A stretch of DNA of 33,424 nucleotides, from positions 1 through 33,424 of the forward strand of contig JAQUNU010000001.1 of the NCBI GenBank assembly GCA_028717445.1, written 5' to 3'. The notes below the pieces were generated by a model, which saw nothing but the letters and a program-made list of their open reading frames with translations, was not told where the DNA came from and did no database searches. A program made the position numbers and the translations under genes. Position 1 is the stretch's first letter, and each line of letters begins with the position of its first letter. Below are positions 1,440-17,307 of the stretch, piece by piece. The DNA comes from Candidatus Portnoybacteria bacterium (lineage in GTDB: Bacteria > Patescibacteriota > Minisyncoccia > Portnoybacterales > GWB1-42-6).

Positions 1440-1461
1440 TATCGAAATCTAATATTTTTTG

Positions 1462-1503: not shown

Positions 1504-1554
1504 ATTTAAGGTATAATTAAACTAAGAAAACACTAAATTTTTTGCCTAAATTTA

Positions 1555-2532: not shown

Positions 2533-4112
2533 TGAAAAAGTTTGAGCTAAAAATATTTTTTAAAAAAGCTATCAGCGGCTGGCTGATCCTGACCACGCTC
2601 ATTCTTTGTTTTGCCGGAATGGCTTTGCCTGAAAAAAAAGCGGAAGCGGCCCTGGCCACCGAAGCGACGCAAGCCGCCCAAATGCTTCAGGATGGAGTTT
2701 TTTATTTTTCTGACGTTGCCTCAACCGTGGAAGACGAAGTTGTTCAAGGCGGCCAGCTTTCATTTCAGGGAATCATGTCCGCCATTGATGGCTGGTTTAA
2801 ATGGGACACTTTGATGGAAAGAGCCCTAAGATTGGCCTGGTATAAAATGAAGAGGCAAATTCTGCGGGACCTGGCCAATGCCATTCTCAACTGGGCCAAG
2901 GGGGAAGACGGAACTCCTGCTTTTGTCACGGATTGGAAGGGTTATTTATCGAATTTAGGCAAAAATGCCGTCACAAAACTGATCAATGACCAAATCAACA
3001 GCATTGCGATGTGCTTCAACTTTAGTCTCTCCCTAAAAGCCTGGATAAACTGGCAGGATATAAATCTAAATGACCAGCTGGCCTGCCCCATGACGCCGTT
3101 TGTTCTGCAGAACTTTTTATCCGATTTTCAGAGAGGCGGCTGGGACTCCTGGAAGAGCTTCATCAGCCCTTCGGGAAATATGTACGGCTCTTTTATGATC
3201 GTTTCGGACGAAATCCTCAAAGAAGAAGAAAGAGAACGCCAAGCGCAAACGTCCAAACTCATTGCCAATCAGGGATACAAAGGAAATGCGACCACGCCAG
3301 GCATTTTGCAAGCGCACGCGGTTAATGAGGCCGCAATGATGGAATGGACATATCTTATGAATTCCCAAGAGTTTGAAGAATTCGTTTTTGCTTTGGCTGA
3401 TGCCTTTATAATTCGCATTATCAGAGGCGGCGTTAGCGCCCTGCAAACAAACGACTATGACTATTCATCCGGACAGCCCGTAAGCGTCACTCCCCAAACA
3501 AACACCTATATCAACGCTTCCAGCGAAAAAGAAACGATCGATGAAATGAAAAACCGGCTAGCCCTGCTCACGGAAGCTCTGCAAGGGCTCCTGAATGAGC
3601 AAAATCAAAATTTATCCCTCATGCAGTCAATTAAAACAATCCAAAATACTCTGGCTTCGCGCGACTGCGCGCTAGCCTCTCTTCCCATCGATAACGAGCT
3701 CAACGCTTTAACAAACCAAATCAACCAAACACAAACAAGAATCAGCCAGGCCCAGCAAGCGGCTCTCGACAATGACGCTTTAATCAACGCCATCGCTTCG
3801 ATAGAGTCAGCGCAAGATTCGGGGGATCAAGCCGCGCTCGAAAGCGCTTCGACTGTTTATCAAACAACCAGAGAAAAAGCAGTCCAATCTTTCAGCGCTC
3901 TTCTGGGCAGCACTCAACGAGATCTAAATACTACTTTCAGCGAAATGAATTCCTATCTTCTGGCTGTCAACCGCCAGGCCAACACTTATTCCTCCAATCG
4001 TGGCATGGCAAGCATAGGCACAGGCCTGGAGGGCCGCCGCGCCGCGGAAAACCAGCTGCTTCTGGCCTGTCCGGAACCAATCGCCACCACAACGCCGAGT
4101 ATTTTATTTTAG
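2532..4112 (+). CDS. Hypothetical secreted or membrane-anchored protein with a Q/N-rich coiled-coil C-terminal half (T4SS-like cluster)
   Basis: The tracked ORF is 2529..4112 (TTG at 2529, ATG at 2532). There is an N-terminal hydrophobic segment (GWLILTTLILCFAGMALP). The C-terminal region is rich in Q, N, L and A heptad-like sequence. I recognise no family. Confidence 0.65.
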   Translation: MKKFELKIFFKKAISGWLILTTLILCFAGMALPEKKAEAALATEATQAAQMLQDGVFYFSDVASTVEDEVVQGGQLSFQGIMSAIDGWFKWDTLMERALRLAWYKMKRQILRDLANAILNWAKGEDGTPAFVTDWKGYLSNLGKNAVTKLINDQINSIAMCFNFSLSLKAWINWQDINLNDQLACPMTPFVLQNFLSDFQRGGWDSWKSFISPSGNMYGSFMIVSDEILKEEERERQAQTSKLIANQGYKGNATTPGILQAHAVNEAAMMEWTYLMNSQEFEEFVFALADAFIIRIIRGGVSALQTNDYDYSSGQPVSVTPQTNTYINASSEKETIDEMKNRLALLTEALQGLLNEQNQNLSLMQSIKTIQNTLASRDCALASLPIDNELNALTNQINQTQTRISQAQQAALDNDALINAIASIESAQDSGDQAALESASTVYQTTREKAVQSFSALLGSTQRDLNTTFSEMNSYLLAVNRQANTYSSNRGMASIGTGLEGRRAAENQLLLACPEPIATTTPSILF

Positions 4113-4133
4113 CTTCTTGCGCGCAAAAAATTA

Positions 4134-6425
4134 ATGCATAAATTGACACAAAAAAAGATATTGGGAATCGCCTGCATAGCCGCTTTTGCGTTTATGATTT
4201 TTTTGATGCCCGCAGCCGCACAGGCTCAATCTTTTGTTGGAGAATGGATATACGGCAATGTCTTAAAAGCAATCAGCTCTCTGCTTTATTACACTTTTTA
4301 TATTTTTGGCTGGCTGCTCTGGCTGGCCGCTGGTTTGCTTGATTTTGTTCTGACCAATCCGACTTTGCAAAAATTTACCAGCGCTCCCTTTGTCCAAGAC
4401 GGCTGGAAAATCACGCGCGATTTGGCTAATATGTTCTTTTCGTTGATTTTAATCGCCATCGCTTTTGCCACAATCCTGAAAATCGACACCTATGGCGTTA
4501 AAAACAATCTGAAAAACATAATTCTTATCGCTCTTTTAATAAACTTCAGCCTGGTTATCGCCGGGGTAATTATTGATTTTGCCCAAGTTTTGACAAATTA
4601 TTTTGTGACCGCCGCCAAAGGCGACAACGCCAGCATAACCGCGATGCTGGCCAACGGCCTGAATATAACCTCGGGATTTGATCCTTCAAAAGCGCCCCGA
4701 GATCTTGAGTTGAAAGATACGTTCCAAGGATTCCTGACTATAGGCCTTGGCCTTTTTGGCCAGACGATATTTGTCTTGGTGGCGGCTTTCACGATGTTTG
4801 CCGCGGTAATTTTTTTGATTGTCCGGTTTGTAGCCATCTGGTTCTTGCTTATGTTATCGCCCATTGTCTGGCTTTTTTATATTCTCCCCAATACCCGCAA
4901 ATATTGGAACCAGTGGTGGGAGGCATTTATGAAATGGGTTTTTTTCGCGCCGGCTTATACTTTTTTTCTTTATTTAAGCTTAATGGCCGTGAGCAAAGGG
5001 GCGCTTGTTTCGCAGGTTGGATTTGTCATGGATCAATCAGGCCAAACATTCATCGGCAAAAGTTTTGAAGTTATTATCAGCTATATAATTTTGATTGGAT
5101 TTTTGATCGCCTCGCTCATCGTGGCCCAAAAAGCCGGCGTGGCCGGAAGCCACGGCGTTATAGCCGTAGGCCGAGGGATGTCAAGAGCGGTCGGAGGCGC
5201 AGTAAGCAACTGGGCGGCCAGGGGAGCGGAAAAAGATATAACCGGAAAAGGATTTATTAGAGGCGCTGGAGCGGGGCTTCGTCGCGGCATTTCTTATTTA
5301 TCACCCGAAGCCTGGAAAACGGCTTGGCGACAACGGCAAGAACAGACCAAAAGAGAGAGCATCCCAATTGCCGCCGGCCGGCGGCAGGATTTGCTCAACC
5401 GAGTGCTTTCGTTAAGCTGGTTTAAGGGCCAGCCCGGCGAAAAAACCGACTACCGCGAAAGAGCGGCCAGATCCAGGCGCGCCGAAGAACGCAAAAATAT
5501 TTACACCAATAACGCCGAGGAATTAATCAGGGGGTTTTTGGACGCAAAAAAATCCGGCAACGCCAACAAAATGAACGCTTATGTCCAGGCCTTATCCGAG
5601 CAGAATGATCAAAACGAATTGTTCAAGGCTCTGAACAAAACCGAAGGCAAAAATTATGCCATGACTGCCCGCGGCGTTACTGACTTTGTCGAGGAGCAAT
5701 TAAAACCGGCCATGGGCGAACAGCAGGCTTATCGCTTCGGCCATGACATGATCAGGATGATGGAAAGCAATGGCCAGTGGATCGGCCGGCCTTTCGCGGC
5801 CAATGCCTCAGGCAAATACGAGCTTTCAGGCGTAGAGGGAGTTGCCGGCAAAAAAGCCGCCTGGGGCGACCTGAACGAGGAGCAAAAGAAAGCGGTCATG
5901 GAGTTGGCGGCCCAAAACGCCCACGTGGAATGGACCAAACAGGATCCGCAAAAACAGTCTATTAACACAGGGCGGTTTAGCTACATCGACGAAGAATATG
6001 AATTAGGGGCAAATGGGGAAATTGATACAATCGACGGTGGCCTTACCACGGCTGGCCTTCAGAAACTCTCAATGATTCAACCCAGCCAGGCAAATCGATT
6101 AAACACTCACAGCAAAGCCATGTTGATGACCTTCCATGCCGATGAATTCAAGAAGACCAACGCCGGCGTTTTTAACAAAATTATGGAAGACATGACCGCA
6201 GCCGTTAGAGGCATGGACAAACCGGGGATTGAAAACTTCGTCGCCAATTTTACCCAGCCCATTGCGCATATAACCAGCGTCATTCGGGACAAAAACGGCA
6301 AGGAGGTCCGCCGGGTCAGCGCCGATGAAGCAAGGGCTAATTTCGTAAAAATGATCGAAGACGCCCAGGCTGAAAAAGGAGACAACGCCAAGCCAAAAGG
6401 AGGGCCCGCTGGATTTAATCCCTAA
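4134..6425 (+). CDS. Polytopic membrane protein, VirB6/TrbL-like, with a long hydrophilic C-terminal domain
   Basis: 763 aa with a signal-like N-terminus (AAFAFMIFLMPAAAQAQS). At least 6 hydrophobic helices fill the first ~360 aa, followed by a ~400-aa charged soluble tail. The position and topology match VirB6/TrbL components of Gram-positive T4SS loci. Confidence 0.6.
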   Translation: MHKLTQKKILGIACIAAFAFMIFLMPAAAQAQSFVGEWIYGNVLKAISSLLYYTFYIFGWLLWLAAGLLDFVLTNPTLQKFTSAPFVQDGWKITRDLANMFFSLILIAIAFATILKIDTYGVKNNLKNIILIALLINFSLVIAGVIIDFAQVLTNYFVTAAKGDNASITAMLANGLNITSGFDPSKAPRDLELKDTFQGFLTIGLGLFGQTIFVLVAAFTMFAAVIFLIVRFVAIWFLLMLSPIVWLFYILPNTRKYWNQWWEAFMKWVFFAPAYTFFLYLSLMAVSKGALVSQVGFVMDQSGQTFIGKSFEVIISYIILIGFLIASLIVAQKAGVAGSHGVIAVGRGMSRAVGGAVSNWAARGAEKDITGKGFIRGAGAGLRRGISYLSPEAWKTAWRQRQEQTKRESIPIAAGRRQDLLNRVLSLSWFKGQPGEKTDYRERAARSRRAEERKNIYTNNAEELIRGFLDAKKSGNANKMNAYVQALSEQNDQNELFKALNKTEGKNYAMTARGVTDFVEEQLKPAMGEQQAYRFGHDMIRMMESNGQWIGRPFAANASGKYELSGVEGVAGKKAAWGDLNEEQKKAVMELAAQNAHVEWTKQDPQKQSINTGRFSYIDEEYELGANGEIDTIDGGLTTAGLQKLSMIQPSQANRLNTHSKAMLMTFHADEFKKTNAGVFNKIMEDMTAAVRGMDKPGIENFVANFTQPIAHITSVIRDKNGKEVRRVSADEARANFVKMIEDAQAEKGDNAKPKGGPAGFNP

Positions 6426-6445
6426 ACTTAAGAATAAACACCTAG

Positions 6446-7630
6446 ATGCCCTTAACCCGCGAACAACTTGATTTTTTCCAATACCAGGCCAATGCCAATA
6501 TTGATTCTCTTCTCCGGAAGGAATCGCTGTTTTTGGCCATGGAAATGGAACCGTTAATCTTAACCCAATCAGGGGGCAGCTACGACAATCTGTCTGAAGC
6601 AAAAAAATTGCTTTTCCAATTAAAATGGGTCGGCTGCGGCATAATCAGAGATGATAATGATTTTTATGACCTTGTTAAATATCATCTACTAGAAGGATTC
6701 GAGTTAAACAGACGCTTTGAATTTGACGCTTTCAGCGATCTTGTTTTTAGCAAATTAGCTAATCTTTTCGGATCAGGATTGCAGGAAATGACGCAAAATA
6801 TACTTTCCGCAACAAGAGAAAATAATCAAACCATCGGCGCGAATCCGATCATGGTCAAAAATGAAACCCGGGCCGTCCGGCCGACTGTCCGCCATTGGCT
6901 GATAGATTTTTTAAGAAGCTCTTCTGCGGAAAATCCAGGCGAAGTCCAGGAAACCGACTATCTTTTCAACAATCCGAATGCCAAAGCTCTTTCGGAAGAA
7001 GATAAAAAAACACTCGGCCAGGTTTTAGCTTTTTACGATACAATGCGTTTACTCTCAAAGGAGGTGGCTATGTCCGAAACTATGCCTCCAAGCGCCGCCG
7101 AAGAACGCCCGCTGATCGCTCCCTTGCGCCAGCAAACCGGAGATGAATTTCATTTTGAAGAACGGCCTCGGCCGTCCATGTCCGCTTTCTACGAAACCCA
7201 ACAACCATCGCCGCGCCCGATTCCGCCGCAACAATCTTTTTCCAACCCAGCCAGGACTTTTTCTCCGCCCCCGCCGCCAGCTCCTCGGCCGCAACCGGCC
7301 TGGCCGCCATCACCCGAAAAAAATTCCTACCAACCCAGGCCCGCCAGCCCGCCTCCTTCTTTGCCGATCCAGCCGCCATCAACGCCATCAAAGCCAATTC
7401 TTTCCAGAATCACTCCGCCTCAAACCCAACCAGTGACCGGACCTGCTTCTTTCAGGCCAGCTCCAATTCCGCCCCCAATTCCGGTCCGGCCAAATACCCC
7501 ACAACAAAAAAGCACCTACCGCGAGACGATCACCCCAGAAGATTTAGACGGTCCGCAGACGCCCCGAAAAACAGGGCCAAAACTAAATGGAAATGTAGTC
7601 AACCTTAAAGATTTTAACCGATCCAATTAA
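6446..7630 (+). CDS. Hypothetical protein with an extreme proline-rich C-terminal half
   Basis: 394 aa. Residues ~210-370 are P/S/Q-rich low complexity (PPPPPAPRPQPAWPPSPEKNSYQPRPASPPPSLPIQPPSTPSKP). No TM segment was seen. Confidence 0.6.
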   Translation: MPLTREQLDFFQYQANANIDSLLRKESLFLAMEMEPLILTQSGGSYDNLSEAKKLLFQLKWVGCGIIRDDNDFYDLVKYHLLEGFELNRRFEFDAFSDLVFSKLANLFGSGLQEMTQNILSATRENNQTIGANPIMVKNETRAVRPTVRHWLIDFLRSSSAENPGEVQETDYLFNNPNAKALSEEDKKTLGQVLAFYDTMRLLSKEVAMSETMPPSAAEERPLIAPLRQQTGDEFHFEERPRPSMSAFYETQQPSPRPIPPQQSFSNPARTFSPPPPPAPRPQPAWPPSPEKNSYQPRPASPPPSLPIQPPSTPSKPILSRITPPQTQPVTGPASFRPAPIPPPIPVRPNTPQQKSTYRETITPEDLDGPQTPRKTGPKLNGNVVNLKDFNRSN

Positions 7631-7944: not shown

Positions 7945-8625
7945 ATGCCCGAACCACAATCAAACATTTTAAACAAAATACCAATCGCCGACATTCAGAA
8001 TGGAATCGTCTTCTTAAAAGACGGTTCGCTTCGGGGAGTTTTAATGGTTTCTTCCGTAAACTTTGCCCTGAAATCAACCGACGAACAGGACGCGCTGACC
8101 TTTCGCTATCAGCAATTTTTGAATTCCCTCGATTTTCCCATCCAAATCCTGATCATGACGCGGCGGTTTGATATCTCCGACTACATCGCCTTGATTGACC
8201 AAAAGAAAAAAGAACAGGAGAACGAACTGCTGCGGATCCAAACCGGTGAATATATTGATTTCATCAAAGGATTGACTCAAGTCGTCAATATTATGAGCAC
8301 TTTTTTTTATATCATCATCCCTTACGCCCAAAGCGAACCGGCCAAAGCGGCCATGGGCTTTGCGGACAAAATAACCAGAAAGATTTTCAGCCAGGAAACG
8401 AGTCAAAATCAAGAAAAACAATCCCTAGAACAAATGCAGACCGGGCTCTGGCAGCGCGTAAATTATATAATCTCCGGCTTGACCATGTGCAATTTGAAAA
8501 GCGCCATTTTAGACGACTTGGAATTAAAAGAGCTTTTTTACAAGCTTTACAATCCGCAATCAGAGCAAAGAGCCGAAACAGAATCTCCGTCAAGCAATCC
8601 AGGATTTAATTTCACCCAAAAATAA
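7945..8625 (+). CDS. Hypothetical protein; resembles a VirB4/TrsE N-terminal domain without an ATPase domain
   Basis: 226 aa. IADIQNGIVFLKDGSLRGVLMVSSVNFALKSTDEQDALTFRYQQFLNSLDFPIQILI resembles the start of VirB4-type proteins. There is no Walker motif. The stop lies 3 nt before the VirB4-like ATPase start. Confidence 0.5.
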   Translation: MPEPQSNILNKIPIADIQNGIVFLKDGSLRGVLMVSSVNFALKSTDEQDALTFRYQQFLNSLDFPIQILIMTRRFDISDYIALIDQKKKEQENELLRIQTGEYIDFIKGLTQVVNIMSTFFYIIIPYAQSEPAKAAMGFADKITRKIFSQETSQNQEKQSLEQMQTGLWQRVNYIISGLTMCNLKSAILDDLELKELFYKLYNPQSEQRAETESPSSNPGFNFTQK

Positions 8626-8628
8626 ATT

Positions 8629-10440
8629 ATGGATTTACCATTTTTTTCAAAACAAAAAAACAAAACAAAACAAACGCCCGAATCGAAGATTGCGGAAATA
8701 TTGGCGCCCTCAGCCATGAAAATAAACGCCAATTTCATCCAGCTCGGCGGCAAATTATGCCGGGTTCTTTTTGTTTTTACCTATCCAAGGAATCTCTCGA
8801 CTAATTGGTTCTCGCCGGTTCTCACCATGGATAAGGAGTTAAATATTTCGATGTTCATCAAGCCGGCCGAAACGCATCTCATCCTAAAACAATTAAGAAA
8901 AAAAGTCGCCCAGGTGCAATCACAGATTTCAGCCCAGCAGGAAAAAGGGAAAATCAGAGATCCCATCCTGCAAACCGCGCTTCAGGATATGGAAACGATG
9001 CGCGACACGCTCCAGCAGGGGACAGAAAGATTTTTTAATTTTGGTCTCTATATCGCCGCTTTCGGCAATTCGCCCCAGGAGCTTGACCAGATTGAGAATG
9101 AACTCCGGGCCGCGATGGAATCAAAATTAGTCTATGTCAAGCCCGCCACTTTCCAACAAGAAGCCGGCTTCACTTCAATTCTGCCGCTGGCCAAAGACGC
9201 TCTTTCGATTTCGACGCCGATGAACACGGCCCCGGTTTCCAGCACATTCCCTTTTGTCTCCTCGGATCTTTCTCAAAACAAAGGCATTCTTTATGGCATT
9301 AACCGACACAACAACAGCTTGATACTTTTTGACCGTTTTTCTTTGGAAAATGCCAATATGGTTATTTTCGCCAAGTCCGGCGCCGGAAAAAGCTATGCGG
9401 TCAAGCTTGAAATATTAAGATCGCTCATGATGGGATCGGACGTTATTGTGATCGATCCGGAAAACGAATATCAGTATCTTGCCGAAACAGTGGGCGGCTC
9501 ATATATAAAAATTTCGCTGACTTCGCCGCATCATATTAATCCTTTTGACCTGCCGATTCCCAGAAAAGATGAACGGCCAGGCGATATTTTACGCTCAAAC
9601 ATCATCAACCTGGTTGGCCTTATCCGAATAATGCTGGGCGGCTTGACCCCGCAGGAAGACGCTGTTTTGGATAAAGCCCTGACAGAAACTTATGCTTCGC
9701 GGGATATTACTCCTGAATCTGATTTTGCGAACATTACGCCGCCGCTCTTAAGCGATCTTAAAACCATCCTTGGCAACATGGAGGGCGGCCAATCCATGGC
9801 GCAGCGGCTCGAAAAATATACCAGCGGCTCATACGCCGGCTTCTTTAATCGGCCCACGAACGTGGCGGTCAAAAACCGATTGGTTGCTTTTTCCATCCGC
9901 GATATGGAAGAAGATCTCCGGCCGATGGCCATGTATGTTGTGCTCCATTATATCTGGAACCTGATCCGTTCGGAGATGAAAAAAAGAATTCTCGTCGTGG
10001 ACGAGGCCTGGGTCATGATGCGTTACGAAGATGCCGGTTCTTTTATGTTCGGCATTGCCAAAAGATGCCGTAAATATTTTCTTGGCCTAACCACGATCAC
10101 CCAAGATGTCGCCGACTTCATGGCCTCAACCTACGGCAAGCCAATCGTCACCAACTCCTCCATCCAGCTCCTGATGAAACAATCGCCAGCCACTATCGAA
10201 ATTATCCAAAACACCTTCAATCTGACCGACCAAGAAAAGTATCTTCTGCTGGAATGCAATGTCGGAGAAGGAATATTTTTTGCCGGCTTAAAGCACGTGG
10301 CCATCAAAGTTATCGCCTCCTACACCGAAGATCAGATTATCACCTCCGACCCGGCCCAGCTGCTTGAAATAGAAAAGGCTAAAGAAGAATTAACAGCGGA
10401 AGAAAACCAACCAACCGATAACAACTTGGACATTATTTAA
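8629..10440 (+). CDS. virB4: VirB4/TrsE/TraC-like type IV secretion ATPase
   Basis: 603 aa with Walker A FAKSGAGKSYAVK and Walker B RILVVDEAW. There is a downstream TTITQ sensor-like motif, and the N-terminal domain carries the YPRNLSTNWF motif typical of VirB4 homologs. Confidence 0.85.
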   Translation: MDLPFFSKQKNKTKQTPESKIAEILAPSAMKINANFIQLGGKLCRVLFVFTYPRNLSTNWFSPVLTMDKELNISMFIKPAETHLILKQLRKKVAQVQSQISAQQEKGKIRDPILQTALQDMETMRDTLQQGTERFFNFGLYIAAFGNSPQELDQIENELRAAMESKLVYVKPATFQQEAGFTSILPLAKDALSISTPMNTAPVSSTFPFVSSDLSQNKGILYGINRHNNSLILFDRFSLENANMVIFAKSGAGKSYAVKLEILRSLMMGSDVIVIDPENEYQYLAETVGGSYIKISLTSPHHINPFDLPIPRKDERPGDILRSNIINLVGLIRIMLGGLTPQEDAVLDKALTETYASRDITPESDFANITPPLLSDLKTILGNMEGGQSMAQRLEKYTSGSYAGFFNRPTNVAVKNRLVAFSIRDMEEDLRPMAMYVVLHYIWNLIRSEMKKRILVVDEAWVMMRYEDAGSFMFGIAKRCRKYFLGLTTITQDVADFMASTYGKPIVTNSSIQLLMKQSPATIEIIQNTFNLTDQEKYLLLECNVGEGIFFAGLKHVAIKVIASYTEDQIITSDPAQLLEIEKAKEELTAEENQPTDNNLDII

Positions 10441-10441
10441 A

Positions 10442-10843
10442 ATGGCCAATGAAATAAATAAAATAAGAAGGGATGATAGCAAGGAAAAAAAAGAAACAAA
10501 CATCAATAGCCCGAAATCCGACGTCACGAGTATCGAATTTGCCCTAATCGCCTTAGTCGCCGTAGGCAAAGACGGCTTGGATGCCGGAGCGACACTCTCG
10601 ATCATCGGAGTGCCTTTAACGCCCATATTAAATATCGGCGCGATAATGATTTTGTGGCTTTGGTGCGTAATGCGGCTAAAAGAATTCCCAACCAAAAGAT
10701 TCGCGGGTTCCGCCATGTTGGAATTCTTGCCTTTTTTGAACGCACTGCCGTTCTGGACGGCTTTCCTGATTCTTATTTATATCCAACAAAACTTTCCCAA
10801 TCTTTCAAAGTATATTCCGGGTTCGAAAGATGAAAAAAAATAA
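10442..10843 (+). CDS. Small integral membrane protein (hypothetical, T4SS-like cluster)
   Basis: 133 aa with a charged N-terminus followed by about 3 hydrophobic helices. It starts 1 nt after the VirB4-like stop. Confidence 0.55.
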   Translation: MANEINKIRRDDSKEKKETNINSPKSDVTSIEFALIALVAVGKDGLDAGATLSIIGVPLTPILNIGAIMILWLWCVMRLKEFPTKRFAGSAMLEFLPFLNALPFWTAFLILIYIQQNFPNLSKYIPGSKDEKK

Positions 10844-10852
10844 ATTGAAAAT

Positions 10853-11704
10853 TTGAAAATCACTAAATTTTTTTTCGCAAATATTTTGCCCGCTTTTTAT
10901 TTTCTCTCCTGCTCGACCGCATTTGCCCTGGAATATCCCTTCGGCAATCTGTCGGCCAATCCCACTCCCTGCGAATATATTAAAACGGCATACATTTGGG
11001 GTCTGGGGATTGTCGGCACTCTGGCGGTGGCCGTGATCGCTTTTGGCGGTTTTCTTTACATGGTGGGGAAAGTGGAGCAGGGCAAAGACTACATCACTTC
11101 GGCGTTTTTGGGAATACTGCTGCTTTTTGGCGCTTACCTGATTCTCTACACTATTAATCCGGAATTGGCACAGTTGAAGTGCGAGATAAAGAATATGCAA
11201 CCCTTGGGAACTCCGCCCACCGGCGCTTCGGTGCCAATAACACCTGGCTCAACCACCGGCACTTCGCTTGGAGAACAGGCGGCTCGGGGCGCTTTGGCCA
11301 GCGGCGTAGGCGTAAAAGACGCTTGTCCGCCTGGGCAGGCGACCGGATGCGTTAGAATGGAGGGGATGAAGGATACAACCGTTAACGAAATAAATGATTT
11401 AGCCGGCAAAGTTGGGCCTGAAAATATCTACATTTCAGGCGGCACCGAAGGGTGCGGCGCCACTGGCTCAACAATTCATTCAACCGGCTCAGTCAGCCAT
11501 TGTTCCGGCGATAAGTATGACATGAGACAGAATAACACCGTTAATAATTATATCGAAAACGCTTTTGTAAAAATGCCCAATCGAAAATACGATGGCGCCG
11601 AAATGTGGATGGACCCAAAAACCGGAACCACTTATGCCAAAGAAATGGGCGTTGTAGGAACGGTTAACGGACCACACTGGGACGTGGCTGTCCGGAAAAT
11701 TTAA
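10853..11704 (+). CDS. VirB2/TrbC-like 'T4SS pilin' N-terminal module fused to a putative LAS/M15-type zinc peptidase (cell-wall hydrolase) domain
   Basis: 283 aa with a TTG start. It has a signal-like N-terminus and then two TM helices (IWGLGIVGTLAVAVIAFGGFLYM and FLGILLLFGAYLILYTINP), as in the Patescibacteria T4SS pilin family. A Pro/Thr linker follows. The C-terminal domain carries SHCSGDKYD (H-x3-G-x3-D) and GPHWDVAVR (H-x-D) motifs. Confidence 0.6.
   Translation: MKITKFFFANILPAFYFLSCSTAFALEYPFGNLSANPTPCEYIKTAYIWGLGIVGTLAVAVIAFGGFLYMVGKVEQGKDYITSAFLGILLLFGAYLILYTINPELAQLKCEIKNMQPLGTPPTGASVPITPGSTTGTSLGEQAARGALASGVGVKDACPPGQATGCVRMEGMKDTTVNEINDLAGKVGPENIYISGGTEGCGATGSTIHSTGSVSHCSGDKYDMRQNNTVNNYIENAFVKMPNRKYDGAEMWMDPKTGTTYAKEMGVVGTVNGPHWDVAVRKI
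10923..11200 (+). repeat. Direct repeat copy A (278 bp, identical to 11797-12074)
   Basis: A base-by-base read of both copies shows identity. Both the sense and the antisense ORF translations are also identical across the repeat. Confidence 0.95.
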
Positions 11705-11735: not shown

Positions 11736-12194
11736 GTGAAAAAATATTTTAAAATAATTTTTTCTTTGATCGGCCTAACCTTTCCGATTTTCTCCCTTGC
11801 CCTGGAATATCCCTTCGGCAATCTGTCGGCCAATCCCACTCCCTGCGAATATATTAAAACGGCATACATTTGGGGTCTGGGGATTGTCGGCACTCTGGCG
11901 GTGGCCGTGATCGCTTTTGGCGGTTTTCTTTACATGGTGGGGAAAGTGGAGCAGGGCAAAGACTACATCACTTCGGCGTTTTTGGGAATACTGCTGCTTT
12001 TTGGCGCTTACCTGATTCTCTACACTATTAATCCGGAATTGGCACAGTTGAAGTGCGAGATAAAGAATATGCAAAAATTTAATGAAGCGCCGCAACCGAC
12101 AAAAACGACGGACGAACCGCTCCCGCAATCGATGACCGAAAAAATAGATGCCGGCGCAACCAACCAAGACATAAAAGACGACATGTTAAAATAA
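11736..12194 (+). CDS. VirB2/TrbC-like 'T4SS pilin' paralog with a short hydrophilic tail
   Basis: 152 aa with a GTG start. Residues ALEYPFGNL...AQLKCEIKNMQ are 100% identical to the preceding gene. The signal peptide and C-terminal tail are unrelated to it. Confidence 0.7.
   Translation: MKKYFKIIFSLIGLTFPIFSLALEYPFGNLSANPTPCEYIKTAYIWGLGIVGTLAVAVIAFGGFLYMVGKVEQGKDYITSAFLGILLLFGAYLILYTINPELAQLKCEIKNMQKFNEAPQPTKTTDEPLPQSMTEKIDAGATNQDIKDDMLK
11797..12074 (+). repeat. Direct repeat copy B (278 bp, identical to 10923-11200)
   Basis: Same as copy A; the offset between copies is 874 bp. Confidence 0.95.
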
Positions 12195-12213: not shown

Positions 12214-13311
12214 ATGAAGAAAAAAATCTTTGTCGCTTTAATAATATTTTTCGTCTTAAGCAGCGGCTCGCTGCTGATTTATAATTTCTTTTTCAAAGAG
12301 AAAACGGAGACAAAAATCGAGGAAAATAAAGAAAAAGCCGAGATAAAAGCGATCAGCGAAAAACAAGCGTTTGCCCCTTTTTTGGAGAACGGCCAAGTCA
12401 AATATTATCTGGCCCAAAACGGCCACGTCGTTCAGTCAAAATTTGACGGCACCCAAAAAAAGGAAATTTCCACGACAGATCTGAAAGATTTGAAAAAAGT
12501 GGCCTGGTCTCCTGATGGCAAAAAAGTCATCGGTTTTTACGGCGAAACAACCGGCAACGGGGTAAAAAAATCCGTTTTTGATTACATAACAAAAAAATCA
12601 TACCCGCTCGACGCCAACATCCGCTCGATCGCCTGGTCGCCGGACAGCAAAAAAATTATTTATCAATACTCCGATAATCAGGGGAATAACAACATCAGCG
12701 CGGCCAACCAGGATGGCTCTGGTTGGCATAATATTCTGCAGACTCGGCTGGGAAATTTGGTCGTCGAATGTCCGACGCCCGGCAAAATTTCCCTTCGGAG
12801 CGTGCCAAACAGCCAAACCAAGGGCTTTCTTTTTGTCCTTGAAGAAAAAACAGAAAATATAGTCGCGGTTCTGGATGATTTAAACGGCTTCTCGGCCAAA
12901 TGGTCGCCGGACGGACAAAAAATCCTTTATCAGACAACAAACGCCAAAGGCCAAGATTTGAAGCTCTTCGTCGCCGACAGCCAAGGCCAAAACAGCCTCC
13001 AGCTGCCCGCGATCACGCTGGTTGAAAAATGCGCTTGGTCCGCGAATAGCCAGAAAATCTTTTGCGCCGCGCCCCAAAATATCTCCGATAACGCAACTTG
13101 GCCTGAGGATTGGCTAGATGGACTCGTTTCCGTTAAAGACGATCTCTATGAGCTCTCTGCCGACGGCAAAGAAAAAACAAAAATCGTCGCTTCTGACGAA
13201 GCGCGATCTTTTGATGTAAATGAAATTATTGCTTCTCCCCAAGGCGACTACGTTCTATTTACCAGCCGCCGCGATGGCCTGCTTTGGAGCGTCGCCATTC
13301 CCAATAATTAA
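12214..13311 (+). CDS. Membrane-anchored PD40/TolB-like beta-propeller repeat protein
   Basis: 365 aa with an N-terminal TM helix. PD40 signatures recur: AWSPDGKKVIGFY, AWSPDSKKIIYQY, KWSPDGQKILYQT, AWSANSQKIFC, ASPQGDYVLFTS. Confidence 0.75.
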   Translation: MKKKIFVALIIFFVLSSGSLLIYNFFFKEKTETKIEENKEKAEIKAISEKQAFAPFLENGQVKYYLAQNGHVVQSKFDGTQKKEISTTDLKDLKKVAWSPDGKKVIGFYGETTGNGVKKSVFDYITKKSYPLDANIRSIAWSPDSKKIIYQYSDNQGNNNISAANQDGSGWHNILQTRLGNLVVECPTPGKISLRSVPNSQTKGFLFVLEEKTENIVAVLDDLNGFSAKWSPDGQKILYQTTNAKGQDLKLFVADSQGQNSLQLPAITLVEKCAWSANSQKIFCAAPQNISDNATWPEDWLDGLVSVKDDLYELSADGKEKTKIVASDEARSFDVNEIIASPQGDYVLFTSRRDGLLWSVAIPNN

Positions 13312-14544
13312 CGCCGCGGCCAAAGCGATCAAAACCCAAAAAATCAAAGCTAGGTCATTTTTAAAATAAGGCGTATCAGCCAAACCGTGAACGATAAAAT
13401 AAACCATAGGCAACAGCAAAATCAGCGCCAGCTGATTTTTCTGTTTAAATAAAAGGAAAAGCGTTTTTTTGAAAAAGGATATCAGCAACCAAGCGAATCC
13501 CGCCAAACCCAGAATCCCGGTTTGCAGCCAAAAGGCCAAAAAAATATTATGCGGTTGGGGCACGGCCCATTCAAGATAGGGAATGGGAAATTTAGACTGA
13601 TATTTCAAATAATAATCCTGGAACATCCCGGGCCCGATGCCCAAAAACGGATTTTCCTTTATAATTTCCGAGGCGGCTCTCCAGATCATCAAGCGTGATT
13701 GCCACGAGGAGCGGGGTGACGAAAAAAGATCATCTAGCTTAGAACTTCCGACCTGAAGAAAAAATATAAACATTAATAAAAGAAGGATGGCTCCAATCCT
13801 AAAACGATATCCGGAGGCGATAATAATCCAGAAAAAAACAGCAACCGCAACTCCCAGCCAGGCCGCGTAGGAAAAGGTCAGATACAAAGCGACGCCGGAA
13901 AAAACAAGGGAAAGCAAAAAAAGTGTCAGCGTCATCTTTCCTTTTTTTAAAATCGAATCCCAAAAAGCCAACCCGACCACAAAACCGGGCGACAGATACA
14001 TGGCCAGATAATTAGGCGAAAGAAAGAACGCGGCCAGACGGCCGTCAAAGGTCTTTTGCCCGGCCAGGAAAAAACACAACGAGATCAAGCCGACCGCGCC
14101 GACCGAAAGAATGAAAGAAAAAACAGCTTTTTCAAAAAAAGCGCGCCATCTGGCGGAAACGAATAACATCATCGCGAAAAGAACCGGCGCCAAAAACCAG
14201 CCTTTTAAAATTCCGGCGCTTATATTGATATTTTTCGAAAACAAGGTCGAGCCGGCCGCGCCGATAAAAATTAAAAGCGCGGGCAGGATAAAAAATTTTA
14301 TTTGGGCCAATGCCAAAAACCTGTATTGCTTTTTAAAGATCCAAATCGCCAAAGCCAAAAAAATCAGAATCTCAAGAACCGAAAAGGGGATAAAAAAGAT
14401 TCTAATTTTGAGAAGATAAAGAGGCGCCAAAAAAATTATAGAGCAAAGGGCCAAATCGAATCTCTTGACGCCAACCAAGACAAAACTGGCCAAACCGAGC
14501 GCCAGAAAAAATATTTCCCAAAATGAATTAAGCAGAATATTCAT
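13255..14544 (-). CDS. O-antigen ligase/polymerase-like (Wzy_C family) polytopic membrane protein
   Basis: 429 aa with about 10 or more TM helices and a central loop. It is tandem with a clearer paralog. Its 3' end overlaps the convergent PD40 gene by 57 nt. Confidence 0.6.
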   Translation of the reverse strand: MNILLNSFWEIFFLALGLASFVLVGVKRFDLALCSIIFLAPLYLLKIRIFFIPFSVLEILIFLALAIWIFKKQYRFLALAQIKFFILPALLIFIGAAGSTLFSKNINISAGILKGWFLAPVLFAMMLFVSARWRAFFEKAVFSFILSVGAVGLISLCFFLAGQKTFDGRLAAFFLSPNYLAMYLSPGFVVGLAFWDSILKKGKMTLTLFLLSLVFSGVALYLTFSYAAWLGVAVAVFFWIIIASGYRFRIGAILLLLMFIFFLQVGSSKLDDLFSSPRSSWQSRLMIWRAASEIIKENPFLGIGPGMFQDYYLKYQSKFPIPYLEWAVPQPHNIFLAFWLQTGILGLAGFAWLLISFFKKTLFLLFKQKNQLALILLLPMVYFIVHGLADTPYFKNDLALIFWVLIALAAALIIGNGDAPKQAIAAAGK

Positions 14545-15895
14545 GATTTTTAACGTTCCTTGCCAAGGCTAGAATAATTAAAAAAAAGGAAATAATCACA
14601 GGATTAAAAACCGCCGATTCAAAAAGGGAGTGGGAAAAAAAATAAACAAGCGAACCAAAAAGACCGATTGCCAAAAAAGAGGAATGTTCGCTTTTTCGGC
14701 TCCTGATAAATTTCAGAAGCTGATAAAAGCTTCCCGCCAGGAGTAAAAACCAGGCAAAAAAACCCAGAATCCCGGTCTCAACTAAAAGATCAAGATAAAG
14801 ATTATGGCTGGTGATCGGGGTGCGGTAGGAAGCGAGCGGATCGGCATAGCGAGGATAATTGCCCAAACCTACGCCTAAAATCGGATTTGAAATGAAAACC
14901 TGCCAAGAATTTCGCCAAATCTCAAGACGAGAAATGGAAGAACCTTCCGATAAAAAGAAACTGGAAAAAAAGCGTTCAAGAACCGGCTGCGCCAGGGCAA
15001 TGATAAGAAAAAAAATCAATATTCCGGCCATTATTATTTTTACTTTCACTGGGCCGCTAAAAGATCGCCAGCCCAGAAAGATCATCGAAACAAAAGCCGC
15101 CACAATCCCTAAATAACCGCCCCGTGAAAAGGTTGCCAGCAGAACCAAAAAAATAAAACCAGCCAGAAAGAAAAGAAGAAGTTGATTTTTTTTTGATCCC
15201 ATGGCTCCGGCCACGACAAGCGGCAAAATCATTCCCAAAAAAAATGAAAGCATATGCGGATCAGGAAAAGAACCGAATGCCCGCATTATGTCTCCGCCGG
15301 CCAAAGCAACAAACCAGCTTGGATGCTGGCCAACCATGAGGGAAAAATTATTCCCCCATAAAAAAGGCCCGGCTTTTTGCAAATAAAAAGAAGATAAAAC
15401 CTCCGGACCAAACACGAATTGGGCTAAAAATTGCATCACTCCGGCTAAGGCCGCCAAAAAACCCAATCCAAAAATTATTTTAAGCACTTTCTGAAATCGA
15501 TTTTTATCCCTTAAAAAAGCCGAGGCAAAAAAGAATAAAGGAAAGACTGAGGCAAAAAAGAATAATTTCCTGATTCCCCATAGAAATTCCTGCGCTCCCA
15601 TTATAGAAAAAAGGGCAAAAATAAAAAACAACAACAAACCAAACCCCTGGAAAGAGAGCGTTTCTGAAACAAAAAAAGAGGGGAGAGACCACCTAAAAAA
15701 GAAGCCGCCGGCTAGCCAAAAAAGAAAAAAGACGGGAATCAGCACTCGTCCAGAAACCAGATCAATGTCACTGCTCAAATTCAAGGCAAATTGAAAAAAT
15801 AAAAGGAAAATTAAAACAAAAAAAGAAATATCAAAAAAATCCGGCTTCGTCTTTCGCCTGATGTTTAAGTCTCGCAGATAAGTTTCTGATTTCAT
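14528..15895 (-). CDS. O-antigen ligase/polymerase-like (Wzy_C family) polytopic membrane protein
   Basis: 455 aa, polytopic. The TFSRGGYLGI motif is characteristic of the O-antigen ligase domain. Confidence 0.65.
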   Translation of the reverse strand: MKSETYLRDLNIRRKTKPDFFDISFFVLIFLLFFQFALNLSSDIDLVSGRVLIPVFFLFWLAGGFFFRWSLPSFFVSETLSFQGFGLLLFFIFALFSIMGAQEFLWGIRKLFFFASVFPLFFFASAFLRDKNRFQKVLKIIFGLGFLAALAGVMQFLAQFVFGPEVLSSFYLQKAGPFLWGNNFSLMVGQHPSWFVALAGGDIMRAFGSFPDPHMLSFFLGMILPLVVAGAMGSKKNQLLLFFLAGFIFLVLLATFSRGGYLGIVAAFVSMIFLGWRSFSGPVKVKIIMAGILIFFLIIALAQPVLERFFSSFFLSEGSSISRLEIWRNSWQVFISNPILGVGLGNYPRYADPLASYRTPITSHNLYLDLLVETGILGFFAWFLLLAGSFYQLLKFIRSRKSEHSSFLAIGLFGSLVYFFSHSLFESAVFNPVIISFFLIILALARNVKNHEYSA

Positions 15896-17307
15896 ATTTC
15901 TCTCCTAAACAAGGCTTTTATTTCGGAAAATGAAATTCCGCGGAAAACAAAAATAGACAAAAGATATAAAATAAAGCCAGCCAAAGCCGGCAGGATCAGG
16001 CCGAATCCGGAAAGCGACCAAAGAATCAAAGCCATCACAGCTGAAGCGGCCAAAGATTTTAAAAAAATATTTAGTTGGGGGAAATATCGGGCTGTTTTAA
16101 AAACAAAAATAACCATAAAGACAGTCACCAACGCCTCGGTTAAAAGAGTTGAAAAAGCGGCCGCCCAATAAGAAAATCGCGGAATAAAAATAATATTAAC
16201 CGAAACATTAATGACCGCTCCGAGGCTGTAGATTTTTGCCAAAGCCTTCTGTTTTCCTAAAGCAATAATTATGTTTGAAAACAGAGCGCCAAAAAAAATA
16301 AAGCCGGTTGCCAAGATCAAAATTTTCAAAACGCCTTCAGATTGAGAAAAACCCTGACCGGCAATAAGCGAAATAATGCCGTCTGAAAGAAAAAATGTGC
16401 CCACTACAAGCGGAACGACAAAAATCATCAGAATATCGAAAGCTCTTTGGGAGACAAGCTTAAATTTTATCTCTTGAGTCCAGGCGTATTTGGAAAGAAG
16501 CGGCATAACCAGACCGACAAACATCGACGGGAAAAAAATCAAGCTTTCAAGGACCTTATAGGCGACGCTGTAAATACCGACATCGCCCGCTTCCTTCATC
16601 AAGGAAAGCATGACCGTGTCTAATTTAAAATAAATCATTACCAAAATAGCGGAAATAGCCAGCGGAAAACTTTCAGCCAAGGTTTTTTTCCAAGCGCGAT
16701 GATCCCAAATAAGCTTAAAATCGACCTGGCGACGGGCAAACAACCAGACCAGAATAAAATTGACGAAACTGCTGACGCTGAATGCGATAACAATGCTCAA
16801 GAAGCCAGCCTTCTGCCAAATAAAAAAGGCCAGGAGCAAAAGCTGGGCCACGCGGCCGCCTAATTCCGCCAAAGCCACCCGGTCCATTTTTAAATGTTTC
16901 TGAAAAATAGCCATCAAAACCTGGGCGTTTGAAAGAAACCAATAGCCAGCCGAAGCCAAAGCAATCCCGGCTTTCGTTTCAGATGAATAGGGGAATAGAA
17001 GAGCAATCAGAGGCGCCGCGGCAAAAATAAAAAAGCCCGCCCAGAATCTAAGCGAGAAGGCCTGACTGATGATTTCTTTTTCCTCCGCTCCGTCCCTAGA
17101 AACATCCCTGACCGCGATCGAATAAAGACCTAAGTCTGCCAAAACAGAAAAAATATAAAGAAAGGCCAAAACTGTGCTGTAATTACCAAACCCGCCCTGA
17201 CCCAAATATCTGGTAATAAGACCCACGGCCACGAGCGCCAGAGCCGTTGAAAGCACCCGGGAAGCGGCCGAAAGAAGAGTGTTGTAGGCGATCTTTTTTG
17301 CCAACAT
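15892..17307 (-). CDS. Oligosaccharide/polysaccharide flippase (MOP superfamily, Wzx/MurJ-like)
   Basis: 471 aa with about 12-14 TM helices and a typical Polysacc_synt N-terminus (KIAYNTLLSAASRVLSTALALV). Its stop overlaps the next start (ATGA). Confidence 0.7.
   Translation of the reverse strand: MLAKKIAYNTLLSAASRVLSTALALVAVGLITRYLGQGGFGNYSTVLAFLYIFSVLADLGLYSIAVRDVSRDGAEEKEIISQAFSLRFWAGFFIFAAAPLIALLFPYSSETKAGIALASAGYWFLSNAQVLMAIFQKHLKMDRVALAELGGRVAQLLLLAFFIWQKAGFLSIVIAFSVSSFVNFILVWLFARRQVDFKLIWDHRAWKKTLAESFPLAISAILVMIYFKLDTVMLSLMKEAGDVGIYSVAYKVLESLIFFPSMFVGLVMPLLSKYAWTQEIKFKLVSQRAFDILMIFVVPLVVGTFFLSDGIISLIAGQGFSQSEGVLKILILATGFIFFGALFSNIIIALGKQKALAKIYSLGAVINVSVNIIFIPRFSYWAAAFSTLLTEALVTVFMVIFVFKTARYFPQLNIFLKSLAASAVMALILWSLSGFGLILPALAGFILYLLSIFVFRGISFSEIKALFRREI

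What the first reader, a model, noticed from the sequence alone, without database searches (positions are those of the whole stretch)
11200..11704. Putative LAS/M15-type zinc peptidase domain fused to a T4SS pilin-like membrane module
After a Pro/Thr/Gly linker, the C-terminal ~150 aa of the 10853 gene carry SVSHCSGDKYD and GPHWDVAVRK. These fit the H-x3-G-x3-D ... H-x-D metal-ligand pattern of M15A/VanY/hedgehog-type (LAS) D,D- or L,D-peptidases (compare SxHxxGxAxD and fxHxD).

Gram-positive T4SS loci normally encode a separate cell-wall hydrolase (a VirB1 analogue). Here the only candidate hydrolase is covalently attached to the pilin-like unit. It could open the organism's own wall, or be presented outward against a neighbouring or host cell wall. 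I matched the motifs by eye only.
Basis: inference. Interest (0 to 1): 0.65.

Follow-up and report, generated by a model that had tools for sequence, protein, structure and literature searches.

The report
Pilin-tethered unnamed enzyme domain, possibly LAS-like
A secretion-system pilin of an ultra-small (CPR) bacterium carries a conserved, unnamed extracellular enzyme-like domain with an invariant His/Asp/His triad that faintly resembles zinc cell-wall peptidases, so it may be the wall-cutting tool these secretion systems seem to lack.

Summary
Gene 10853..11704 encodes a signal peptide, a VirB2/T4SS-pilin-like two-helix membrane module, a Pro/Thr/Gly linker and a 146-aa C-terminal domain carrying SHCSGDKYD and HWD.

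The domain defines a real family with no match in Pfam, NCBIfam or PHROGs. It has 241 cluster representatives. H216, D223 and H275 are invariant in 148 aligned members, and E199, H209, G219, K221, E264, W276 and D277 are at least 90% conserved. The pilin fusion is the main architecture: 111 of 148 members hit T4SS_pilin. In 12 CPR loci the gene lies 1.2-2.5 kb downstream of virB4, within a shared gene order. Actinomycetes carry the domain alone behind signal-peptide-like N-termini.

The LAS/M15 reading is only partly supported.
- For: the H-x2-G-x3-D register is correct. An M15A/MepK-like profile scores weakly but above every control (hhalign P 0.004; best member 15 bits; 0 of 3020 shuffles reach 6 bits). 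One relative adds an SLT domain, and another adds a sub-threshold VanY-like one.
- Against: a confident AlphaFold model (pLDDT 91.6) has no Foldseek match to any LAS structure. There is no Pfam or PDB sequence hit. Profiles for M15C and DdpX do not match. The HWD motif never aligns with HxD. Lys and Glu replace the canonical Ala and Arg.

Best guess, at about 0.45: a very divergent LAS-like metallohydrolase displayed on the pilin.

The parts
10853..10927 (+). Predicted Sec signal peptide (aa 1-25, MKITKFFFANILPAFYFLSCSTAFA, cleavage before LEYP)
   Evidence: Read from the translation and DNA. The paralog at 11736 has a different signal peptide ending SLA before the same LEYP. The cleavage site is inferred, not tested.
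10928..11200 (+). VirB2/T4SS_pilin-like two-helix membrane module (aa 26-116)
   Evidence: Pfam T4SS_pilin aa 44-100, E 0.041 (below threshold), and TrbC E 0.19. 111 of 148 relatives hit T4SS_pilin. The single-sequence AF2 model shows helices 39-70 and 74-101. This stretch lies within the 278-nt exact repeat 10923-11200.
11201..11263 (+). Pro/Thr/Gly-rich flexible linker (aa 117-137)
   Evidence: Composition read from the translation. The columns are unconserved and P/T/G/S-rich in relatives. pLDDT is below 50.
11264..11704 (+). Conserved C-terminal domain (aa 138-283 plus stop), unnamed family; candidate metallohydrolase
   Evidence: 241 cluster representatives at E<=1e-3. The AF2 model built with a 41-sequence alignment has pLDDT 91.6 and pTM 0.87. 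No Pfam, NCBIfam, PHROG or PDB hit.
11438..11449 (+). [T/S]-G-G-T-E strand end (SGGTE in the window, aa 195-199; codons for G196-E199 marked here); aligns with SGYR of M15A-like enzymes
   Evidence: T195, G197 and E199 are over 85% conserved. The hhalign and hmmsearch register places it on SGYR.
11477..11521 (+). H209 ... S-H216-C-S-G219-D-K221-Y-D223: invariant His, Gly, Lys and Asp; candidate first two metal ligands
   Evidence: H216 and D223 are invariant; H209, G219 and K221 are at least 90% conserved in 148 sequences. The stretch aligns in register with SxHxxGxAxD of MepK-like, Ply500-like and DdpX.
11642..11644 (+). E264, near-invariant Glu on an extra beta-hairpin
   Evidence: Conserved in 150 of 151 sequences. 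Strand 123-127 of the model ends at this residue.
11675..11683 (+). H275-W276-D277 on the last beta-strand; candidate third metal ligand and acid
   Evidence: H275 is invariant; W276 and D277 are at least 90% conserved. Model strand 138-142. hhalign does not align it with the LAS HxD strand.
11736..12194 (+). Tandem short pilin paralog (152 aa). Its mature pilin module is 100% identical at the DNA level, but its signal peptide and 39-aa tail differ and it has no enzyme domain
   Evidence: 278-nt exact direct repeat 10923-11200 = 11797-12074. Pfam T4SS_pilin E 0.018.
8629..10440 (+). VirB4-like T4SS ATPase
   Evidence: Pfam TraG P-loop 2.5e-24, DUF87, AAA_10, CagE_TrbE_VirB. tblastn E reported as 0 (2e-102 where the locus end cuts the hit) in 12 related CPR loci, ending 1.2-2.5 kb upstream of the pilin fusion in 11 of them.
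7945..8625 (+). 226-aa protein with no family hit, conserved immediately upstream of virB4
   Evidence: tblastn E 1e-37 to 5e-75 at the same position in 11 related loci. No Pfam hit.
10442..10843 (+). 133-aa small membrane protein between virB4 and the pilin fusion
   Evidence: ORF. No family hit. Homolog at the same position in L116.
12214..13311 (+). PD40 (TolB-like) beta-propeller protein, conserved downstream neighbour
   Evidence: Pfam PD40 1.6e-10. tblastn hits in 15 related CPR loci, downstream of the fusion in 11 of them.

Best explanation
The gene encodes a Sec-exported, VirB2-type T4SS pilin. Its extracellular C-terminus carries a compact 146-aa enzyme domain on a roughly 20-residue flexible linker.

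The domain belongs to an unnamed family. I judge it most likely a very divergent relative of the LAS (M15A/MepK/Peptidase_M15_3-like) zinc peptidases. On this reading H216, D223 and H275 hold a metal ion, and E199, H209, K221, E264 and D277 form the rest of the active site.

Tethered to the pilin module of the CPR virB4 cluster, it would cut peptide links in peptidoglycan. The target could be the organism's own wall, to let the apparatus through (a VirB1 substitute), or the wall of the host cell it attaches to.

Shown: the architecture, the conservation, the linkage to virB4, the extracellular-type features, and a weak profile similarity to M15A-like enzymes. Inferred: metal binding, catalysis, the substrate, and display on a pilus.
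For: - Family and conservation: 241 representatives. H216, D223 and H275 are invariant, and eight more residues are at least 90% conserved in 148 sequences.
- Coordinated loss: the one member that lost H216 also lost H209, K221, D223 and H275 together (P0022). That pattern fits a single active site.
- Architecture: 111 of 148 members are T4SS_pilin fusions.
- Synteny: g7945 - virB4 - pilin::domain in 11 CPR loci from several classes (virB4 upstream in 12), with the PD40 gene following in 10 of them.
- Sequence register: H-x2-G-x3-D equals the LAS SxHxxGxAxD motif (PMC6354061).
- Profile-profile: hhalign of the family against a MepK-plus-viral M15A-like profile gives score 22.8, P 0.004, in the expected register. 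This exceeds 120 of 120 shuffled profiles (maximum 19.3) and the reversed profile (14.3). It equals the score of true LAS member DdpX against the same profile (23.0).
- Profile-sequence: the M15A-like HMM hits member P0121 at 15.0 bits, E 2.9e-4, over 90 positions. 10 of 151 real sequences reach 6 bits or more, against 0 of 3020 shuffles and 0 reversed decoys.
- Secondary-structure order of the confident model: helix, strand, loop with His, strand with Asp, helix, strands, last strand with His. This matches the placement of ligands described for LAS enzymes (PMC6354061).
- Domain co-occurrence: one relative adds an SLT lytic transglycosylase above the Pfam cut-off. Another adds a weak VanY-like domain.
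- Extracellular features: conserved Cys pairs, a signal peptide, and signal-peptide-like N-termini on the stand-alone actinomycete homologs.
- No VirB1-like hydrolase was recognised in the cluster. Published surveys report that most Patescibacteria with VirB2-like pilins lack VirB1 (PMC12102498).
Against: - A confident AF2 model (pLDDT 91.6) finds no LAS structure. The best PDB and BFVD Foldseek E-values are about 0.2, and TM-scores normalised to the query are 0.1-0.4.
- No Pfam M15, VanY or M23 hit for any member.
- No PDB sequence hit.
- hhalign probabilities are low: 8-12% against M15A-like, and 0.4% against Ply500-like M15C and DdpX. The control M15C against M15A-like gives 88.5%.
- The third motif, HWD, is never aligned with LAS HxD, even after deleting the intervening hairpin.
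- The canonical Ala is an invariant Lys, and the SGYR Arg is an invariant Glu. The substrate pocket would therefore differ.
- No biochemical data exist, and I could not inspect model coordinates to check the triad geometry.
Confidence: 0.45

Rival explanations
1. The domain is a hydrolase with a fold of its own that is not homologous to LAS enzymes. The H-x6-D...H pattern is convergent. It may still act on the cell envelope, or on another extracellular polymer.
For: There is no Foldseek match of any kind at E<=1e-3 for a model with pLDDT 91.6. There are no Pfam or PDB hits. The active-site inventory (E, H, H, K, D, E, H, D) is richer than, and different from, LAS. HWD does not align with HxD.
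Against: Weak similarity to M15A-like profiles is reproducible, in register and above every control, over about 90 positions and not just the motif.
Confidence: 0.27
2. The domain is a contact-delivered toxin or effector aimed at the host or at competitors, not a wall-opening accessory. The pilin, or a giant surface protein, serves as its delivery vehicle.
For: In a Pacearchaeota MAG the domain sits in a protein of more than 2500 aa, just before a pretoxin HINT domain (PT-HINT E 3.8e-12). One relative carries an eCIS_core domain. The Streptomyces homolog lies next to a WXG100 / RNase-toxin / CdiI cluster. The weak top Foldseek hits are colicin D and CdiA toxins, with probability at most 0.35.
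Against: No conserved neighbour, and so no candidate immunity gene, was found across actinomycete genera. In the PT-HINT protein the domain lies upstream of HINT, not at the C-terminal toxin position. The Foldseek toxin hits are at noise level. The Streptomyces toxin cluster is divergently oriented and is not conserved elsewhere.
Confidence: 0.13
3. The domain is a non-catalytic binding or adhesin module (for example, recognition of a host surface glycan or peptide), and the conserved His/Asp residues hold a structural metal.
For: Published discussion of CPR pilin arrays considers adaptation to different host strains (PMC12102498). The domain has no detectable enzyme-family membership.
Against: Eleven near-invariant polar or Gly residues are conserved across CPR, DPANN and actinomycete copies. 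The key residues are lost together in one degenerate member. Both are typical of catalytic sites. The stand-alone actinomycete versions, which appear to be secreted, argue against a pilus-specific adhesin.
Confidence: 0.1
4. The fusion is an assembly or gene-calling artefact, prompted by the 278-nt exact repeat shared with the next gene.
For: An exact 278-nt tandem repeat is the kind of feature that can mis-join metagenome reads.
Against: The same pilin-linker-domain architecture occurs in 111 of 148 relatives and in syntenic loci of independent assemblies. This includes a 66%-identical pilin module in L116.
Confidence: 0.02

Closest known systems
LAS metallopeptidases of the M15A / MepK (DUF882, PF05951) / Peptidase_M15_3 (PF08291) type
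   Same: The H-x2-G-x3-D spacing matches, and a later His sits on a beta-strand followed by Asp (H-x-D as in MepK FVHID). The order of elements matches: helix, strand ending in a small-residue motif (ITGGTE against SGYR), loop with His, strand with Asp, helix, G-x-x-Y strand. Profile similarity is weak but above the controls. Both are extracellular cell-envelope proteins.
   Different: No Pfam, PDB or Foldseek match. An invariant Lys replaces the motif Ala, and an invariant Glu replaces the SGYR Arg. H209 and E264 are additional invariant residues. An extra beta-hairpin precedes the last strand. HWD is not aligned to HxD by hhalign. The domain is fused to a T4SS pilin, which I have not seen described for M15 enzymes.
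VirB1-type T4SS cell-wall hydrolases of monoderm systems (PrgK, TraG of pIP501, CwlT: SLT and/or CHAP/NlpC-P60/LytM domains)
   Same: The gene lies within a virB4 cluster in a system that otherwise lacks a recognisable hydrolase. One relative combines the domain with an SLT domain, in the manner of two-domain VirB1 analogues (background in PMC12102498).
   Different: The fold and family are unrelated to SLT, CHAP or M23. The anchor is a VirB2-like pilin module rather than a single TM helix. Function is untested.
VirB2/TrbC/T4SS_pilin (PF18895) pilins of Patescibacteria
   Same: The N-terminal signal peptide plus two-helix hairpin matches. The location next to virB4 and close to dnaA matches. 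The tandem pilin paralogs match published descriptions (PMC12102498, PMC10633639).
   Different: Described pilins are short, whereas this one carries a 146-aa globular domain. Published arrays have paralogs at most 54% identical, whereas here the two mature pilin modules are 100% identical at the DNA level.

Membership tests
LAS / Peptidase M15 superfamily | First metal-ligand motif SxHxxGxAxD (His and Asp seven residues apart, Gly at +3) | tested here: inconclusive
   S-H216-x-x-G219-x-K221-x-D223 has the His, Gly and Asp spacing, and all three are invariant or nearly so. However, the Ala is an invariant Lys, and the Ser sits at -1 rather than -2.
LAS / Peptidase M15 superfamily | Third ligand His on a later beta-strand (HxH, HxD or ExxH) | tested here: inconclusive
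   H275-W-D277 is invariant and lies on the last predicted strand. hhalign never pairs it with the MepK-like FVHID strand.
LAS / Peptidase M15 superfamily | Significant sequence-profile match to an M15/VanY/M23/M74/Hedgehog family model | tested here: not met
   No such Pfam hit among 41 domain segments at E<=10 or among 148 full-length members at E<=0.01. Only a self-built M15A-like HMM gives 15 bits, E 2.9e-4, for one member. hhalign probabilities are 8-12% against M15A-like and 0.4% against M15C and DdpX.
LAS / Peptidase M15 superfamily | Hedgehog/DD-peptidase fold | tested here: not met
   Foldseek of the pLDDT-91.6 model against PDB and BFVD finds no LAS structure. Lysostaphin appears at rank 31 with probability 0.07. 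The secondary-structure order is compatible, but I could not superpose coordinates.
LAS / Peptidase M15 superfamily | Tetrahedral Zn2+ bound by His, Asp, His plus water; metal-dependent peptidase activity | not testable with these tools
   This needs model coordinates with a metal, or a crystal structure, plus biochemistry.
T4SS_pilin (PF18895) / TrbC-VirB2 (PF04956) | Pfam match above the gathering score | tested here: not met
   The window protein scores 14.4 bits (cut-off 26.6) and 12.4 bits (cut-off 27.9). Relatives P0101 (28.1 bits), P0059 (27.8 bits) and P0152 (27.0 bits) pass. 111 of 148 members hit at E<=0.01.
T4SS_pilin (PF18895) / TrbC-VirB2 (PF04956) | Signal peptide plus two hydrophobic helices; gene next to virB4 | tested here: met
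   Sequence and helices 39-70 and 74-101. virB4 ends 412 nt upstream. The synteny is conserved.
VirB1-like T4SS hydrolase (functional class) | Peptidoglycan-degrading activity required for T4SS assembly or function | not testable with these tools
   Only context supports this: location in the cluster, absence of another recognisable hydrolase, and co-occurrence with SLT in a relative.

The most novel reading that the evidence does not exclude
CPR bacteria (and, within giant surface proteins, DPANN archaea) use a previously unrecognised metallohydrolase fold. In CPR it is built directly into the T4SS pilin, so the pilus or pilin platform is itself an enzyme-decorated tool that breaches the host cell wall during episymbiosis. 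The short paralog, with its identical polymerisation module, would co-assemble with it as the undecorated subunit.
Probability: 0.2. Interest if true: 0.85.

Novelty: new variant of a known kind. Interest (0 to 1): 0.6.

Why it matters
Patescibacteria keep a T4SS-like machine that is essential for epibiotic growth in the one species tested (PMC10633639). Most of them have VirB2-like pilins but no recognisable VirB1 wall hydrolase (PMC12102498).

A widespread family of pilins with a built-in candidate hydrolase would give a concrete, testable answer to two questions. One is how the apparatus crosses a wall. The other is what it does to the host surface.

The finding also defines a new domain family for annotation, with hundreds of clusters across CPR, DPANN and actinomycetes. 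If the LAS link holds, it extends that superfamily to an unusual Lys/Glu active-site variant.

Tried and rejected
- Pfam, NCBIfam and PHROGs on the whole protein and on the domain: no hits.
- phmmer and hmmsearch against PDB sequences, using the domain, the family profile and the most LAS-like member: nothing relevant.
- Word-indexed homolog search with the domain found only the protein itself. With the profile it found 4 proteins.
- The single-sequence AF2 model was useless for the domain.
- The VanY-like tail of P0101 was tried as a seed for PDB M15 sequences and failed.
- The homolog search with MepK returned only relatives at least 81% identical. I therefore built the LAS profiles from viral contigs.
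- Deleting the extra hairpin to force HWD onto HxD did not improve the hhalign score.
- An eye-read SLT motif in the giant Nanoarchaeota protein was not confirmed by Pfam.
- A search for a conserved partner or immunity gene in actinomycete loci found none.
- Amidase_2 (H...K-x-D) and PLD HKD analogies were considered from memory and dropped. The spacing does not fit, and Foldseek shows no such fold.
- The first genome-contig scan with A1 failed because no stretch was conserved enough. It was repeated with a tighter alignment.

Full report
**1. What is in the window**

ORF 10853..11704 (+ strand, TTG start, 283 aa) reads as four parts:
- a typical signal peptide (MKITKFFFANILPAFYFLSCSTAFA, then LEYP);
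- a two-helix hydrophobic module (aa 26-116);
- a Pro/Thr/Gly linker (aa 117-137);
- a 146-aa C-terminal region with ...SVSHCSGDKYD... and ...GPHWDVAVRKI.

I checked the codons against the DNA. The only slip is the spacing, which is H-x2-G-x3-D. That is exactly the spacing of the comparator motif SxHxxGxAxD.

The window looks like a chromosomal oriC region of a CPR/Patescibacteria genome, judged from the gene content and from the organisms that carry the syntenic loci. It carries:
- dnaA, dnaN, yidC and jag;
- ruvABC and a class A PBP;
- Wzy-type ligases;
- a VirB4-like ATPase at 8629-10440.

A T4SS cluster near dnaA is the arrangement published for Patescibacteria (PMC12102498).

**2. The N-terminal module is a VirB2-type pilin, and the fusion is real**

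The window protein alone is below the Pfam thresholds (T4SS_pilin 14.4 bits, TrbC 12.4 bits). An exhaustive HMMER search with aa 120-283 found 241 cluster representatives at E<=1e-3 and 47 at E<=1e-10. In most of them the domain lies at the very C-terminus of a 260-330-aa protein.

Of 148 full-length members, 111 hit T4SS_pilin (best 1.5e-12) and 15 hit TrbC.

A genome-collection scan placed the family in many CPR lineages: Paceibacterota, Portnoy-, Wolfe-, Zambryski-, Kaiser-, Doudna-, Vogel- and Moraniibacteria, Saccharibacteria and Gracilibacteria.

In 12 loci a virB4 homolog lies upstream of the fusion gene. Its tblastn hit ends 1.2-2.5 kb upstream of the pilin-module hit where both could be placed; in the twelfth locus, L117, it ends about 4.7 kb upstream. 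In 11 of these loci a homolog of window gene 7945-8625 precedes virB4. In 10 of them a PD40 beta-propeller gene (window 12214-13311) follows the fusion gene. In one further locus the PD40 gene lies downstream but virB4 was not found.

An assembly artefact can therefore be dismissed.

**3. The C-terminal domain is a conserved family with no match in the libraries searched**

- No Pfam, NCBIfam or PHROG model matches it.
- No PDB sequence matches it.
- In 148 sequences H216, D223 and H275 are invariant. G197, E199, H209, G219, K221, E264, W276 and D277 are at least 90% conserved (per-column counts).
- One member, P0022, replaces H209, H216, K221, D223 and H275 all together. That is how catalytic sites decay in pseudo-enzymes.
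- Conserved Cys pairs, the signal peptide and the expected VirB2 topology (both termini outside) place the domain outside the cell. This placement is an inference.
- With a 41-sequence alignment AlphaFold2 gives a confident model: pLDDT 91.6, pTM 0.87. Its elements run helix 37-50, strand 56-59, a long loop carrying E199/H209/H216, strand 84-88 (K221-D223), helix 91-100, three strands, and a last strand 138-142 (HWD) (element positions are model numbering, where residue 1 = aa 138; residue names are full-length).

**4. Is it a LAS/M15 peptidase?**

Evidence for:
- The motif register matches. The layout also matches what is described for LAS enzymes: His just before the strand that carries Asp, and the third His on a later strand (PMC6354061).
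- I built an M15A-like profile from E. coli MepK (PF05951/PF08291 by precomputed Pfam) plus about 20 viral relatives at 30-44% identity.
- hhalign of the family against that profile gives score 22.8, P 0.004, probability 8%. The alignment pairs the helix, pairs ITGGTE with SGYR, and pairs SHxxGxKxD with SxHxxGxAxD.
- None of 120 column- or block-shuffled profiles reached that score (maximum 19.3). The reversed profile gave 14.3.
- The bona fide LAS enzyme DdpX scores the same against this profile: 23.0, probability 9%.
- hmmsearch with the M15A-like HMM gives 15.0 bits, E 2.9e-4, for member P0121 over 90 HMM positions. 10 of 151 real sequences reach 6 bits or more, against 0 of 3020 shuffles (maximum 5.4) and 0 reversed decoys (maximum 4.6).

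Evidence against:
- Foldseek of the confident model finds nothing at E<=1e-3 in PDB or BFVD. No LAS structure appears in the top 50, and lysostaphin is at rank 31 with probability 0.07.
- hhalign against a Ply500-like M15C profile and against DdpX gives probability 0.4%. The control M15C against M15A-like gives 88.5%.
- The HWD strand is never aligned with FVHID, even after removing the extra hairpin.
- The motif Ala is an invariant Lys, and the SGYR Arg is an invariant Glu.

My reading is that remote homology to M15A-like LAS enzymes is plausible, at roughly even odds, but not demonstrated. Family membership fails the two standard tests, a profile hit and a fold hit.

**5. Context clues to function**

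- One relative (P0059) is pilin-domain-SLT, with SLT at 36 bits, above the cut-off. Another (P0101) is pilin-domain plus a weak VanY-like region at E 0.02. Pairing a peptidase with a glycosidase is the pattern of monoderm VirB1 analogues (background in PMC12102498).
- The T4SS cluster in the window has no other recognisable hydrolase.
- Outside CPR, actinomycetes (Streptomyces, Microbispora, Amycolatopsis, Kribbella) encode the domain alone in small proteins, 172 aa where the full product is on record, behind signal-peptide-like N-termini. They have no neighbour conserved across genera, which argues against a toxin-immunity pair.
- Two DPANN MAGs embed the domain in proteins of more than 2300 aa. 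One of these places it just upstream of a PT-HINT pretoxin domain. One member has an eCIS_core domain. The S. misionensis copy abuts a WXG100/RNase-toxin cluster. These keep an effector reading alive.

**6. Proposed mechanism, with steps marked shown or inferred**

- Shown: a pilin module, a flexible linker and a conserved domain rich in polar invariant residues, genetically linked to virB4.
- Inferred: after signal-peptide cleavage the pilin hairpin inserts with both termini outside, and the linker presents the domain at the cell surface or along a pilus.
- Inferred: H216, D223 and H275 bind a metal, and the domain hydrolyses a peptide bond of peptidoglycan. Replacing Arg by Glu and Ala by Lys suggests a specificity different from known M15 enzymes.
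- Speculation: the adjacent short pilin (11736-12194) has a mature module identical at the DNA level over 278 nt, so it could co-assemble as the undecorated subunit.

**7. Novelty**

The two papers I read on the Patescibacteria T4SS describe VirB2-like pilin arrays and a general lack of VirB1. In the passages I read (term searches, not the full text), neither describes a pilin-enzyme fusion or this domain (PMC12102498, PMC10633639; literature searches).

I rate it a new variant of a known kind: a T4SS wall-hydrolase function and/or a LAS-like enzyme, in a new architecture and a new sequence family. It might be a new fold.

Noticed in passing
window 10923-11200 and 11797-12074: There is an exact 278-nt tandem direct repeat. 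It spans the mature pilin module (from about one codon before the predicted signal-peptide cleavage site to the end of the module) in two adjacent genes whose signal peptides and C-terminal tails differ. Published CPR pilin arrays have paralogs at most 54% identical, and in the related loci scanned with the window's pilin module all but one (L117) showed only the one copy fused to the domain. The cause could be recent duplication, gene conversion or an assembly artefact; this is unresolved.
   Followed up: partly
window 12214-13311; L113-L118, L137, L142, L158, L166, L170: A PD40 (TolB-like) beta-propeller protein with an N-terminal hydrophobic segment lies downstream of the pilin-domain gene in 11 of the related CPR loci, 10 of which also have virB4 upstream. 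It may be an unrecognised component of the CPR T4SS cluster.
   Followed up: partly
window 7945-8625: A 226-aa protein with no family hit is conserved immediately upstream of virB4 in 11 related loci (tblastn E 1e-37 to 5e-75). Its identity (TrsD, PrgL or VirB8-like?) was not determined.
   Followed up: no
L120:679-7734 and L143:1-7752: MAGs labelled Nanoarchaeota and Pacearchaeota carry the same domain inside ORFs of more than 2300 aa. In L143 a PT-HINT pretoxin domain and a roughly 300-aa tail with no family hit follow it. Mis-binning of CPR DNA into these MAGs was not excluded.
   Followed up: partly
P0078 (353 aa): This protein begins with a signal-peptide-like N-terminus, has two tandem copies of the domain and has no pilin module. 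Its origin is unknown.
   Followed up: no
L110/L111 (Streptomyces misionensis) 1047-5528: The stand-alone homolog is divergently adjacent to a cluster of two WXG100 genes, RNAse_A_bac toxin genes and a CdiI_2 immunity gene. It is also close to a Peptidase_S11 D,D-carboxypeptidase gene. This arrangement is not conserved in other genera.
   Followed up: partly
window 13255-17307 (- strand): Two overlapping Wzy_C O-antigen-ligase-like genes and a Polysacc_synt/MurJ-like flippase lie directly after the T4SS cluster. This is a surface-polysaccharide module beside the secretion genes.
   Followed up: no
window 1555-7630: Four large ORFs upstream of the cluster (325, 527, 763 and 394 aa) have no family hits, apart from one TSP3 repeat in the first. 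A VirB6/PrgH-like channel subunit may be among them, but this was not examined.
   Followed up: no
window 28474-29823 (- strand): A 449-aa protein has two Lamin Tail Domain (LTD) matches (E 8e-28). It sits between ruvB and yebC.
   Followed up: no
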